Positions 1,411 to 59,049 of a DNA stretch of 64,000 bases are shown here, piece by piece. The translations under genes and the position numbers were made by a program. The DNA comes from Narcine bancroftii (taxonomy: Eukaryota). Location of the stretch: contig NC_091469.1 of the NCBI RefSeq assembly GCF_036971445.1, forward strand, positions 446,834,001-446,898,000, written 5' to 3'. The notes beneath the pieces are model-generated. The model saw only the letters and a program-made list of their open reading frames with translations, was not told the origin of the DNA and ran no database searches. Numbering within the stretch: the stretch's first letter is position 1; the number at the start of each line of letters is the position of its first letter.

Positions 1411-3301
1411 GTGTTGTAGTTCTTGTTCTGCCCTGTGCGACCTCTCACTCCAGTATAACGACACAAGCCATTCAGTTGCATTAAATAAAAATCGGCAGAG
1501 AATTGCAGTAATTCAGCAATGTCTGTCACCAACATCTCTTGGTAACCAGGGGAGAGAGATGTACTCTATCTTGCCAGCAATGTCTCCAGTCAAAGAAAAA
1601 TAATTAAAAGTTTTGAAAGTGGCCATGGTCTGGATTTCTGCACATAAAAGAGGTGGAAATGGAATCAATCAGTACCATCAACAGAGAATTGGAAAGACAG
1701 TAGAGAGCAAGTAATTTATGGGGCAGTTAGGAAAGATGAAGAGTAATGACCAATGGTGCTAGCTGACTACAGCTCTCTGTGACTGCATTAATAGGCTTTT
1801 TTCAAACATTCCTGCTGTTTTATTTCTGCATTCACTATGGGACCTGGAAACAATATAGGGATGGCGTGAAGATGGTGATAAAATGATTTCATTTAAAAGT
1901 TAGACAGATTTGGGATACTGTATGTGTCAAGATAGTGTTTTTTGTGGGGGAGGGTGGAAACATGAGTTCTCACAAGAAAATAAGTGTACCTTCAACATTC
2001 ATATCTTCCACTTCAGTAATCAGGAAATCACTGTTCAGCTGCACTCTGTTGCCAAAGAAAACAATGGTTGCAAGGCAGCCAAAGTTGTGCCAAGTCACTT
2101 TGTACGTTCAGTCTTACCTCCTTGTCTTCATGCTTATTATTAACCAGAAAATTTAGTGTATCATACCAATGGTTTTGAATTTATTGGTCTGCACTTTACT
2201 GATTTTCAGTTTAAGAACATTTTTGTCAATAGTTGACATGGTCTTGAAGTTCCCTGTGCTACCCTAACACTAGCCACAAAAAAATCAGGAACAATCTAAA
2301 GATCTGTCTGCACTGTTAACACATGGTGATTTTGCACTAATTGCTACTGTGAACATTCATTTATCTATCCTTTTATATTTATTATCTCCTTTCCTGTATC
2401 ATGGCATATTATGGTTATTTTAATTTATACCATTGTTGTTGATGCATCTTCCATACTTGTGTGCTGTTGCAAGAATTTCTGAACATTGTGCTTATGAAGA
2501 ATGACAATATCTTCTCATCCTCTGGAATATGCACCTTCCTATTACGTGTACAGGGAAGATCCCTTGACTTCCAAGTATTTCGCTGTGCAAGTTAGATATT
2601 GTCAAACTATGTAATCAGCAAAATCTGAAATGATGTCATTGCATTAGGTTCCCTGCTGCCCACATATGCTGAACTCTACCAATGCCAGCTTTCCCTCGCC
2701 ATGCCAACTACTTTCCTAGTGCGACAAACATTTCCTGTTGCTGTATTAATAAGGAGTCACTATGGGTGGCAGAACAAATTCACAGTCACAAGCAAATGCA
2801 TCACAGTGGGAGGGTAGTTAGTGAATGCTCAATTCCATTTAAACAAGGAACAAAAGTTTGTGGTTTACATCAGCTTGATCTATTTGGCTTTGTGTGTAAC
2901 ACTCACAAGCCTGGGCTAACCCTGATCACATTATGAACTTGCTGTTAAATTGATTACATTCCAATGTGCCTAGCAACAGTTCATAAATTTCTCACTATGT
3001 TACAAGTGACCTTTAATACTAATAATTAGTATGATTGATAGAACTGCCGTCAGCTTTTGGATAGTTGTTCACTTCAATTTGTCCAAACCACAATCATAAT
3101 ACATTGAGCAGATCTAACACAATGGAAACAATGCAGATCAATCAAAATCCACCAACCATATTAGAAGCCCCAAAATTTAGATCCATTCACTCCACAGAAT
3201 GCAGTAATCTTCATCCAATATGCTGCAGTCCAAATCCTCCCACTATCCAATATAATAAAGTCCAAACTCACCTACTCAGTCCAATGTAACACAGTCGAAA
3301 T

Positions 3302-3677
3302 CAGCAGTTCTCATCATTTTACTTTCCATTCACACACCACTTTCAGTCATCCCTATGCCAATGGTGTCCTGTGATTAGTAAGGGATGGCTTAAAGTGGTA
3401 TGTGAGTGGGAAGGGAAGGTTGAGAATCACTGCTCTAGACCCATTTGCTACTGAAATATTTTGCTTGAGAAAAATTGTCATTGGCCTAGTTCCTTTGGAG
3501 TTATGAAACTGTGCACATAACGAGTCAATGAGGTACAATTAAAACAGTGGTTTTTCAAACTTTTTCTTTCCACCCACAGACCACCTTAAACAATCCCTTA
3601 CTGATCACAGAACACCTATGGCATAGGGAATATTTAAAGTGGTATGTGAGTGGAAAGAAAAAGGTTGAGAACCACTG
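3302..3677. mobile_element. Composite hAT/Charlie-type MITE (two inverted ~130-bp MITEs plus a 112-bp spacer)
   Basis: TIRs CAG(C/T)(A/G)GTTCTCA...TGAGAACCACTG; internal TIR pairs; 8-bp TSD GTCGAAAT/GTCTAAAT. Confidence 0.85.
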
Positions 3678-4095
3678 GTCTAAATAGATGTAAAAGGACA
3701 GGAATAAGATATTTAAATTAGTGAGAATGTTGAATAATGTGAATGAATGGCAATTCCACCGTTATTTCTTTTTTCATTACACATTTCAATAGGGGTCGTG
3801 TGCCCCATGATGAATGGGATCAAGGTAAGTTTTTGGAATTTATTCGCCTTCATCTGCCTTCACGGCTGTTGAGTTAGAAGTAACTTTATCTGCTTGTTCC
3901 ACTGTTGAGGTCTTGGTTGGAATGTTCTTTGTCAGGGACCCCACCCTTGACCTTACCGCATGGGTGGCCCAACCAGGAAAAAAGCTCCAGACGGCATCGC
4001 TCTCAGGATCTCAGGACCACACAAGGTTCTCCACCACGACAAGGTGACAATCCACAGAGAAGTTCATTAGTACAGCAGAATAAAACACACTACAG

Positions 4096-4227
4096 CAGTG
4101 GTTCTCAACCTTTTTACTTCTACCCACATACCACCTTAAGCAACCCCTTACTAATCACAGAGCACCTATGGCATAGGGATTACTTAAAGTGGTATGTGAG
4201 TGGAAAGAAAAAGGTTGAGAACCACTG
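4096..4227. mobile_element. Monomeric 132-bp hAT MITE
   Basis: Perfect TIR CAGTGGTTCTCAACC/GGTTGAGAACCACTG; 8-bp TSD CACTACAG/CACAACAG. Confidence 0.9.
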
Positions 4228-29571: not shown

Positions 29572-32500
29572 GTTACGTTGAAGCTGCCAACATTCTGGGC
29601 ATCGCAGCCACACGTGTGGTTCGAATAAGCTGAGGCCCAGTTCTACCGACAGACGTTACTACTTTGTGGTGAGCTCGCTTAACCAGGACACAGCAGTAAG
29701 TGTAATCAACTTCCTGCAGCAGCCTCCATAACAAGGCAAATACGATGCCCTCAGAGAGCTATTAACCCACACCTTCAGACTCTCACAGCATGAGCATGCC
29801 ATCGGATTGTTGGATATGGATTGTTTGGAAGGACAGGGCCCATCTGCTCTCATGAGCGAAATGCTCACCCTTGCTGAGGGACACAGGCCTTGCCTGCTCT
29901 TTGTGAGCAGATTTTTCTGGAGCAGCTGCCTAAGAAGAACCTACTCTCGTTAGCCGATGAGGACTTCAGCAACTCCAGGAAAGTTACAGCCTGGCCGGAT
30001 GTTCTCTGGAGAGTAAGAAAGAAAATGATGCCTTGGTGGAGCACATAGCCGGCATCAAGGCCACAGGAATCAGAGAGGTAAGTGGACCCCCCTAACCCAA
30101 CAGTATTGCTATTATCACCAATGATTGGGTGCGGGGCTCAACAATGCTGCCCACCCTGCGCATTTCAGGGAAACACCATGGCCAACCGCCGTTAATGGCT
30201 GCGGCAGTTGCCCAATGTGACAGCCTCCTCCATGTGTGGGAATCTCTATCAGGAAGGCGTTTCCTCATTGACACTGGTGGCCCTCGGCCTATGACACCTG
30301 GAACAACAAGCCAGGACCAGCACTGGGGGCAATGAACGGCAACACTATACGAACTTTTGGCACCCGCGTCATCCCCCTCCACTTCGGCAGCAACCAGTTC
30401 ACGTGGACATTCACGATTGCAGCTGTGGTGCAACCGCTGCTGGGAGCAGACTTCCTGCAAGCCCACTGCCCGCTGGTGGACCTTAAAGGGTGGCATTTGG
30501 TGCACACCAGGTCTTTTCGAACAACACCCCTTGGGAAGCCAAGTTACCTGCTCCCCACGTCAACTCCATTACTCTGTTCGACAACGCATTTAAGCAGATC
30601 CTAGTGGAGTTCCCTTCAATCATGGCTCCAGTTTTCCTCCGCTGAACTGAAGCACGGGGTAAGGAGCCACATTCTCACTAAGGGTCCCCCCCACTCTATC
30701 CCAGGGCATGCCGCCTTCCCCTGAGATGCTCACCCTCACCATGGAGGAGTTTAAAAACAATTAAAGAGCTGAGGATAGTGTGGCATTCTGACAGCCCCTG
30801 GGCCTCCCCCCTGTACATGGTACCGAAGGCAGGAAGAGGGTGGAGGCCATGTGGTGACTATTGCTGCCTCAATGAGGCCACCACACCTGACAGATACCCC
30901 GTGCCCCATATCCAAGATTTTACTACCACCCACATACCACCTTATGCAATCCCTTACTAATCACAGAGCACTTATGGCATAGGGAATATTTAAAGTGGTA
31001 CATGAGTGGAAAGAAAAAGGTTGAAAACCACTGTTCCAGAGGCTAGTGGATACAGTGGGTCAGGATCTCCCATTCATGTTTATCTATTTGGATAATATGC
31101 AAGTGGCCTATCTAAGATGACTGTGTAACTGGCTGTAGGAATTTGAACTATAAACCCTGCTAAGTGCCAGATTGGGTTGGAAACGATCAACTTTCTGGGG
31201 TATTGAATCAACAGGCACAGAGCGAAACCCCACCCAAAAAGATAAAGGCCACTTGGCACTTCGCCAAGCCCCACACACTGAAGGGGTTTGCAAGAATTCA
31301 ATGGTATGATTAACTGTTATCACCGATTCATACCAGCAGTGGCCACATCATGTACCCCCTTTTCGTACTCATGATGGTGAAAGGTAAAGACATTACCTGG
31401 GTTAATCAGGCCTCCGAGGTGTTCCAGAGGGCCAAGGATGCACTGGCCAATGCTACCTTTCTGGTAAACCCAGAGGTGCCAACCACTCTAACAGTAGATG
31501 TCTCCAGCACAGGGGAAGGGGACGTACTGGAGCAATTCATGGAAGGACAATGGCAGCCCTTGGCCTTCTTTAGTAGGCATCTCCAGCCACCCAAACTCCA
31601 ATATAGTGCCTTTGACCAGGAGCTATTGGCACTGTACCTGCTAGTCAGGCACTTCAAGTGTTTTTTAGAAGGTAGACAATTCAGTGTCTGAGTTCACCAC
31701 AGACATCCAACACAACGTGGCTAAGACCAACGTGGTGGCTGATCCACTGTCCCACCCTGCGATCAAGTCCATCCAAGCCCTGTCCCAATGATTAGACTAT
31801 TTTGCCATAGCCAGGGCATCCAAGATCCTGGCATACACAACAGCAGTTTCTGGGCTCAGGCTGGAGAATGTCACCATTGGTCCTAGTAACCAGATGCTCC
31901 TCTGCGACATCTCCACTGGCAAACCATGCCCCATTGTGCCAGCAGCATGGAGACACAGGTTTTCGATGCAATGCACAACCAGGCACACCCAGCCATCAGA
32001 ACTTCTGTCAAAATGGTGGCCAGAAGGGTCACCTGGCACAGCCTCCGTTAACAGGTCAGTGGGTCAAGACTTGAACGATCAGCCAGATGTCCAAAGTGTA
32101 AACACACGTCAAGACTTTCGACCCAGTGCAACATAGGTTCAGTTACGTTCATACTGACATTGTAGGGACACTACCAGACTCCCGTGGGGGCGAGATATCT
32201 CCTCACCAAGACTGACCACTTCACGAGGTGGCCGGAGGTGGTCCCGCTGGTCGACATGATCACCAACATCTGCGCCAGGGCACTGATTTACACCTGGGTA
32301 TCGAGACTGGGAGTCGCAGAGCACATGACCTTCAGTAGAGGCACACAGTTCACTCCAGGATTCTGGGCGGCTCTGGCCAATCAGCTCCACCACTGCACGG
32401 CTTACCACCCTCAGATCAACAGGTTGGTGGAGCGGTTCCACAGGAACCTAAAGGTAGCCTTCATGGCTCAGCTCAAGGAGCCAAACTAGGTAAACGAACT

Positions 32501-58682: not shown

Positions 58683-59049
58683 CAGTTGTCCTCAACTTTT
58701 TTTTCTTTCCTCTCACATACCACTTTGAGTATTCCCTATGGCATAGGTGCTCTGTGATTACTAAAGATGGTATGTGGGTAGAAAGCAAAAAATTTGAAAA
58801 ACACCGTTTTAATTGAACCGAATGGACTCGTTATGTGCATGGTTTCATAACTCCAAAGGAAACGGGCCAATGACAATTTTTCTCAAGCAAAATATTTCAG
58901 TAACAATTGGGTCTAGAGCAGTGATTCTCAACCTTCCCTTCCCACTCACATACCACCTTAAGCAATCCCTTACTCATCACAGGACACCAATGGCATAAGG
59001 ATTACTGAAAGTGATATATGAGTGGAAAGAAAGAGGTTGAGAACCACTG
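58683..59049. mobile_element. Second copy of the composite hAT MITE, opposite orientation
   Basis: Reverse-complement match to 3302-3677, including the spacer (TTTTTCTCAAGCAAAATATTTCAGTA). Confidence 0.85.

What the first reader, a model, noticed from the sequence alone, without database searches (positions are those of the whole stretch)
3302..3677. Composite 'two MITEs plus captured spacer' transposon that moved as one unit
Seen: 3302-3432 and 3545-3677 are two inverted copies of the 132-bp hAT MITE that also occurs alone at 4096-4227. They bracket a 112-bp spacer, and the 376-bp block has its own 8-bp TSD (GTCGAAAT/GTCTAAAT). The same block with the same spacer recurs inverted at 58683-59049. 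The spacer begins CTCTAGAC, which fits the Charlie-type hAT target consensus NTCTAGAN. Inference: two neighbouring MITE insertions captured the DNA between them and became a new mobile family, like a bacterial composite transposon.
Basis: partly seen in the sequence, partly recalled or inferred. Interest (0 to 1): 0.72.

Follow-up and report, generated by a model that had tools for sequence, protein, structure and literature searches.

The report
Double mini-transposon that sheds singles
A 375-letter jumping DNA element found at over a thousand places in this animal genome consists of two back-to-back mini-transposons around a short spacer; it likely arose when two neighbouring insertions began to move together, and the rarer lone mini-transposons are likely its broken-down offspring rather than its parents.

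Summary
The 376-bp arm-spacer-arm block is one copy of a genome-wide, non-coding, Buster-type hAT family: 1,107 copies have both outer 15-mers exact, and I estimate about 39,000 in all (16,000-80,000). It moves as one unit: 46 of 105 copies have a 7-8/8 target duplication, against 1.2% by chance. Both inner junctions sit exactly on target-like 8-mers (CTCTAGAC best possible; RATTAAAA top 2%), which favours origin by two insertions (about 0.7). They are about a tenth as common and no older. Their ends match the outer ends of the long form's three subfamilies, at about the same ratio in the two counted. Ten of 28, including 4096, carry a base found almost only on the long form's right arm. So monomers look like 'solos' shed by deletion between repeated inverted repeats. 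Arms also convert each other. No donor locus or autonomous partner was found. Closest published kind: KolobokP (composite-like, with solos). The scan's index shows no look-alike by sequence. New variant of a known kind.

The parts
3294..3301 (+). left target-site duplication GTCGAAAT
   Evidence: sequence; 7/8 match to 3678-3685
3302..3432 (-). left arm: inverted MITE unit with ~52-bp inverted repeats of its own; outer end decayed in this copy
3433..3544 (.). 112-bp spacer shared by all subfamilies; no convincing coding frame
   Evidence: length 112 in 116 of the copies measured
3433..3440 (.). inner 8-mer CTCTAGAC, likely the fossil target site of the left arm
   Evidence: highest score under the family's own target profile
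3537..3544 (.). inner 8-mer AATTAAAA (GATTAAAA in most copies), likely the fossil target site of the right arm
   Evidence: top ~2% of background 8-mers, 10-13th percentile of real target duplications
3545..3677 (+). right arm: MITE unit with its own inverted repeats
3678..3685 (+). right target-site duplication GTCTAAAT; likely single in organism B (empty site, inferred)
4096..4227 (+). lone 132-bp unit with target duplication CACTACAG/CACAACAG; outer-type ends with right-arm body (C29), likely a solo derived from the long form
30918..31033 (+). 5'-truncated arm without spacer
58683..59049 (-). second long copy, 11-bp deletion in the right arm, no clean target duplication, unrelated flanks

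Best explanation
This is one copy of a high-copy, non-coding, Buster-type hAT element of 375 bp (arm-spacer-arm) that inserted as a single unit; it likely arose once from two neighbouring inverted MITE insertions 112 bp apart, and today's lone 132-bp MITEs are likely mostly deletion products of it. Shown: unit movement with 8-bp TA-centred target duplications; one shared spacer; three subfamilies in which both outer ends change together; one-way exchange between arms. Inferred: (1) a transposase in trans, not identified, paired the two outer ends, as in a bacterial composite transposon; (2) each arm is itself an inverted repeat, so the element holds two pairs of ~52-bp direct repeats, and deletion or template switching between them (at excision-gap repair or replication) leaves a 132-bp solo with two outer ends and the original target duplication; (3) a minority of solos may be arms that moved alone; (4) untested: the long form out-amplified the monomer because of its size or four binding blocks, or because inner ends drifted from the outer ends.
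For: Unit movement: 1,107 exact-ended long copies; 46 of 105 with 7-8/8 duplication vs 1.2% in mismatched pairs; T4/A5 at 95%; inferred empty site in organism B. Two insertions: four inverted-repeat blocks; CTCTAGAC outscores every real target duplication; RATTAAAA is in the top 1.8-2.3% of background and inside the real range; both lie exactly at the repeat boundary. Solos derived: 114 of 119 classifiable long copies have matching outer ends; lone copies with the same paired ends exist for each subfamily; ratio 8:86 in subfamily 3 and about 114:1,107 for the subfamily-1 end pattern; C29 in 69 of 78 right inner ends, 1 and 3 of 78 outer ends, and 10 of 28 lone copies; 15 haplotypes among 29 lone copies and no monomer-specific shared changes; no clear age excess, 7.1% vs 5.8-6.5%, p=0.22. 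Arm exchange: 25 shared private changes vs 11.9 permuted, p=0.0006.
Against: No armless donor and no long copy with separate duplications for each arm; no autonomous partner. RATTAAAA is only a moderate target (p about 0.02) and ranks second or third among the spacer's 105 8-mers. Crossover states in lone copies are not cleanly nested (T46 without T40; T40 excess not significant, p=0.31). Four of 30 loci are lone copies with the left inner end and a 6-8/8 duplication, and L120 and L138 are subfamily-2 lone copies that could be relics of a parent. Samples were picked by exact patterns, not at random; arm conversion blurs all haplotype tests. The empty site is read from depth and offsets; the joint row was not displayed.
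Confidence: 0.6

Rival explanations
1. One reading: the lone 132-bp MITE is a still-present parent family, and the long form descends from two of its members.
For: Target-like inner 8-mers; lone copies have their own duplications (21 of 38 at 7-8/8); subfamily-2 lone copies equal a near-perfect right arm (L120, L138); lone copies are slightly, not significantly, more diverged.
Against: Lone copies carry paired outer ends of three different long-form subfamilies at a similar 1:10 ratio in the two counted; the C29 state typical of the subfamily-1 right arm is in 10 of 28, including 4096; the two lone copies in 600 kb of unselected DNA are rearranged switch products.
Confidence: 0.15
2. The long form is an internal-deletion remnant of a larger, possibly autonomous, composite-like hAT in which two arms flank a transposase gene (a hAT counterpart of KolobokP); the spacer is the join of its two subterminal segments.
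For: Usual origin of hAT MITEs is internal deletion (PMC3517528, passages); KolobokP shows such architecture exists (PMC9587614); the partner has not been found, so it is not excluded.
Against: No longer shared interior among 189 long copies (longest spacer 166 bp, singletons); none of 50 transposase loci carries these arms or the spacer; longest open frame in the spacer is about 35 codons.
Confidence: 0.12
3. One monomer plus 112 bp of flank was turned into the long form by a fold-back template switch that copied the arm in reverse; only CTCTAGAC is a true target site.
For: Template switching is frequent in this family: arm conversion, an inverted 193-bp flank copy at the inner junction of L396, and switched centres in L378 and L402. 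RATTAAAA is a weaker target.
Against: The right arm starts exactly at the first base of the repeat with no carried-over flank and no 3' microhomology to the left junction (sequence), beside an 8-mer in the top 2%; the two inner ends differ at about seven positions.
Confidence: 0.1
4. The two window blocks are a segmental duplication.
For: None beyond two similar blocks in 64 kb.
Against: Flanks unrelated; over a thousand dispersed copies with individual duplications.
Confidence: 0.01

Closest known systems
KolobokP composite-like DNA transposons with solo LTDRs (Kojima and Bao 2022, PMC9587614; part 1 of 6 of the text and passages read)
   Same: Interior flanked by two long repeats that each have their own terminal inverted repeats; whole unit and solos both flanked by target duplications; solos arise by recombination or by moving alone.
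   Different: Here the superfamily is hAT (8-bp TA-centred duplication), arms are inverted not direct, arms are 132 bp not ~450/660 bp, the interior is 112 bp and non-coding, and solos are mosaics of two arms.
Bacterial composite transposons (Tn10/Tn5, recalled) and MITE-bounded TIME-COMPs (PMC13367494; search listing and start of abstract only)
   Same: Two inverted small elements move the DNA between them using the outer ends; inner ends differ from outer ends.
   Different: No cargo gene, no transposase in either arm, eukaryotic, amplified to an estimated tens of thousands of copies.
Maize Ac/Ds macrotransposons and compound Ds-l4-483 (PMC3260210; passages)
   Same: hAT ends of two elements mobilise intervening host DNA.
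   Different: Those are single events or single copies; this became the dominant form of a family.
Buster-type hAT MITEs such as Mar (PMC3517528; passages)
   Same: Non-coding, short inverted ends, 8-bp nnnTAnnn target duplication.
   Different: Mar derives by internal deletion from a known autonomous copy and has one pair of ends; this has two pairs and no partner found.
Multicopy Pack-TIRs of animals (PMC8277862; passages)
   Same: A TIR element carrying a short foreign piece that then transposes.
   Different: Pack-TIRs hold the piece inside one element, have an identified parental copy and few copies; here two whole units flank it and no donor is identified.

Membership tests
hAT superfamily, Buster type, non-autonomous | 8-bp target-site duplication | tested here: met
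   46 of 105 long copies at 7-8/8 vs 1.2% null
hAT superfamily, Buster type, non-autonomous | nnnTAnnn target consensus (PMC3517528) | tested here: met
   T4 0.95, A5 0.95 in the symmetrised profile from 59 copies
hAT superfamily, Buster type, non-autonomous | terminal inverted repeats, no coding capacity, high copy number | tested here: met
hAT superfamily, Buster type, non-autonomous | ends shared with an autonomous Buster transposase element | tested here: inconclusive
   0 of 50 PF05699 loci examined (of 150 scored, 993 candidates) share the ends; a 2.0-2.7 kb family with other ends and similar targets exists
Composite transposon | two complete small elements, each with both ends, flank an interior | tested here: met
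Composite transposon | whole unit transposes with one outer duplication | tested here: met
   inferred empty site in organism B
Composite transposon | interior is captured host DNA with a donor | tested here: inconclusive
   inner 8-mers target-like; no armless spacer in 30 of 68 pattern hits examined, a low-power search
Composite transposon | flanking elements existed independently first or can move alone | tested here: inconclusive
   4 of 30 loci are lone left-inner-type copies with 6-8/8 duplication; no older monomer family seen
KolobokP | long terminal direct repeats of ~450 or ~660 bp, Kolobok transposase and His-Me nuclease, 3-5 bp duplication | tested here: not met
   inverted 132-bp arms, non-coding, 8-bp duplication
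Pack-TIR | captured piece inside one element with identified parental copy | tested here: not met
   spacer lies between two whole units; no parent found
A named Repbase/Dfam family | match to a catalogued consensus | not testable with these tools

The most novel reading that the evidence does not exclude
A vertebrate hAT MITE went through a full cycle: two inverted copies fused with 112 bp of host DNA into a composite that displaced the monomer, spread to tens of thousands of sites in at least three species, renewed its two outer ends in concert while its inner ends drifted as in Tn10, and now regenerates monomer-sized MITEs as solos. Short MITE families can thus be offspring of composites, and the longer, four-ended form can be the fitter transposase substrate.
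Probability: 0.5. Interest if true: 0.62.

Novelty: new variant of a known kind. Interest (0 to 1): 0.48.

Why it matters
Composite transposons are a bacterial textbook item; in eukaryotes the documented cases are single macrotransposition events or the KolobokP lineage. A MITE-bounded composite that became the majority form of a family gives thousands of natural replicates for three questions: whether size or number of ends sets a MITE's success, how often long inverted repeats convert or collapse in a vertebrate germ line, and whether 'monomer' MITE consensus sequences in repeat libraries are sometimes derived solos. It carries no gene, and no effect on the host was tested.

Tried and rejected
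Segmental duplication: flanks unrelated. Treating monomer-length pattern hits as monomers: 12 of 15 loci were left arms of long copies, and 26 of the 30 best hits to 4096 lay beside a spacer. Autonomous partner: none in 50 transposase loci; a search for ends 1-4 kb apart could not be run. Donor: 30 of 68 hits for a spacer without the left junction all kept at least one arm; no donor-like pair of flanks among 189 long copies; power was low (exact words). Coding in the spacer: longest frame about 35 codons, not pursued. Ordering subfamilies by age: spacer divergence 5.5, 6.9 and 6.0%, not significant. Clean single-crossover model for solos: only partly met. Runs X7 and X8 (organisms D, E) cover a neighbouring repeat but not the element; contigs show presence, not absence. 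Runs X1-X4 may be the window's own source and were not used. Literature searches listed no eukaryotic high-copy family of two inverted MITEs around a spacer; the library lacks most subscription papers and Repbase Reports, and no supplements were read. The Fusarium passages (PMC3599309) are a hypothesis about gene clusters, not a precedent. PMC3942097 (passages) gave the Ac/Buster split but no consensus.

Full report
Observation. The sequence matches the description. Positions 3302-3432 and 3545-3677 are inverted copies of the unit at 4096-4227, around a 112-bp spacer, with flanks GTCGAAAT/GTCTAAAT. The second block (58683-59049, minus strand) is 85% identical, has unrelated flanks and no clean duplication. 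Each arm is itself a hairpin with ~52-bp inverted repeats, so the block has four repeat blocks and folds as one long stem (-87 kcal/mol, DNA parameters).

It is a genome-wide family that moves as one unit. The spacer gave 2,073 first-look candidates, and all 30 loci fetched had arm sequence beside it. A pattern for both outer 15-mers at long-form distance gave 1,107 exact matches, control 0. In 600 kb of unselected DNA there were 7 long copies and 2 lone ones, giving about 39,000 long copies (95% range 16,000-80,000); 200 kb beside the window held 4 long and 0 lone. Of 105 long copies with both ends (pooled from several searches, not random), 46 have a 7-8/8 duplication and 59 at least 6/8, against 1.2% and 7.4% for mismatched flank pairs. 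The target profile has T4 and A5 at 0.95, the nnnTAnnn Buster signature (PMC3517528, passages). The family is abundant in contigs of organisms B and C. In B one contig of depth 9.35 covers 3134-3293; depth and offsets place a piece of the same depth at 3678-3749, which I read as an empty site with one target copy. The joint itself was not displayed, so this is inferred, and precise loss in B is not excluded.

Origin. If two units inserted separately, each inner junction should keep a target 8-mer. CTCTAGAC scores at or above every real duplication and rounds to zero frequency in 200 kb of background. GATTAAAA and AATTAAAA lie in the top 1.8% and 2.3% of background and at the 13th and 10th percentile of real duplications; they are the commonest junction words (83 and 50 of 189 copies; CTCTAGAC 112 of 189). 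Both abut the first base of the repeat exactly. This favours two insertions over a fold-back copy, which need not stop at that base. It is indirect. No armless spacer was found among 30 of 68 pattern hits, no copy had donor-like flanks, and none of 50 transposase loci shares the ends or the spacer. I put two-insertion origin at about 0.7.

The lone units are likely offspring. Most monomer-length hits are arms of long copies (12 of 15). Of 54 loci chosen for two outer-type ends, 17 lay beside a spacer; the other 37 plus 4096 gave 38 lone copies, 21 with a 7-8/8 duplication. The long form has three subfamilies that share the spacer and similar inner ends but differ in outer ends; both outer ends agree in 114 of 119 classifiable copies. 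Each subfamily has lone copies with its own outer end on both sides: subfamily 3, 9 hits, 8 lone (one a duplicate assembly copy) against 86 long; subfamily-1 end pattern, 9 of the 50 listed places of 634 hits, about 114 against 1,107; subfamily 2, L120 and L138. At most one of these types could be the parent. Among 28 lone copies (no spacer, duplication at least 5/8, L171 dropped), 19 have a right-arm centre and 9 a left-arm centre. Ten carry C at position 29, a state seen in 69 of 78 subfamily-1 right inner ends but in 1 and 3 of 78 outer ends and 3 of 48 left inner ends (p=0.0013); organism B's copies have T there. The copy at 4096 is one of the ten. An outer-type T46 is enriched (6 of 28 vs 4 of 95 inner ends, p=0.009), T40 is not (p=0.31), and the two are not nested. 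Twenty-nine lone copies show 15 haplotypes at five sites and share private changes about as often as arms do (0.20 vs 0.12-0.19 per pair); core divergence is 7.1% vs 5.8-6.5% (p=0.22). Against this reading: 4 of 30 loci are lone copies with the left inner end and a good duplication, which may be arms that moved alone or relics of a parent, and subfamily-2 lone copies cannot be told from an ancestral type. I put 'mostly derived' at about 0.75.

Mechanism. Shown: arms exchange sequence one way. In 78 subfamily-1 copies both arms have the left-type centre in 15, the right-type in 9, and are swapped in 1; an element's two arms share 25 private changes against 11.9 in permutations (p=0.0006). Templated rearrangements are visible in L396, L378 and L402. 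Inferred: the same template switching keeps the outer ends matched and, between the ~52-bp direct repeats, deletes 243 bp to leave a solo with two outer ends inside the original duplication. Untested: why the long form won. Size, four binding blocks, or inner ends that differ from outer ends within the first 15 bases in the commonest subfamily (as for the inner ends of Tn10 and Tn5, recalled) are candidates.

Comparison. It works like a composite transposon and meets the structural and mobility criteria; capture from a donor and prior independence of the arms are inconclusive. KolobokP is the nearest eukaryotic precedent for a composite-like unit with solos (PMC9587614, part 1 of 6 and passages) but has direct repeats, coding capacity and another superfamily. 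Maize macrotransposons and a compound Ds (PMC3260210, passages), Pack-TIRs (PMC8277862, passages) and bacterial TIME-COMPs (listing only) share single aspects. Nine searches listed no high-copy eukaryotic family of two inverted MITEs around a spacer, but Repbase, Dfam and most subscription papers could not be seen, so the family may already have a name. The scan's own index returned nothing by sequence; by place one note describes a templated insertion in a hAT MITE of this genome.

Verdict. Observation confirmed; interpretation partly supported, with the parent-offspring direction likely reversed for present-day monomers. New variant of a known kind, interest 0.48; the full-cycle reading has probability 0.5 and would deserve 0.62.

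Noticed in passing
   Followed up: partly
L392:5901-6415: Another ~500-bp element is nested in the left arm of a long copy, close to the inner junction.
   Followed up: no
L279 and L015, around position 1500: Two of 189 long copies lack one whole arm almost exactly at the inner junction, as expected from arm excision or deletion between an outer duplication and the inner target-like 8-mer.
   Followed up: partly
L163, L296/L297, L328: Tandem arm-spacer-arm-spacer arrays and adjacent long copies occur, recalling KolobokP multimers.
   Followed up: no
L256-L258, L260, L261: A 2.0-2.7 kb hAT family with a transposase dimerisation domain, its own terminal repeats and TA-centred 8-bp duplications; a possible but untested mobiliser. 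Several other hAT families are present.
   Followed up: partly
window 3846-4063: A separate repeat shared with all four other organisms laid, much wider in range than the MITE.
   Followed up: no
window 3134-3293 and 3678-3749: Flanks differ from organism B by 11 of 232 letters (4.7%), yet this copy differs from the family majority by 26 of 375 (6.9%) and B seems to lack it: either fast change in the hairpin, descent from an already diverged donor, or precise loss in B.
   Followed up: partly
positions 3427, 3574, 3638: Organism B's dominant copies carry the states of subfamilies 2/3, organism C's those of subfamily 1, so different subfamilies amplified in different lineages.
   Followed up: partly
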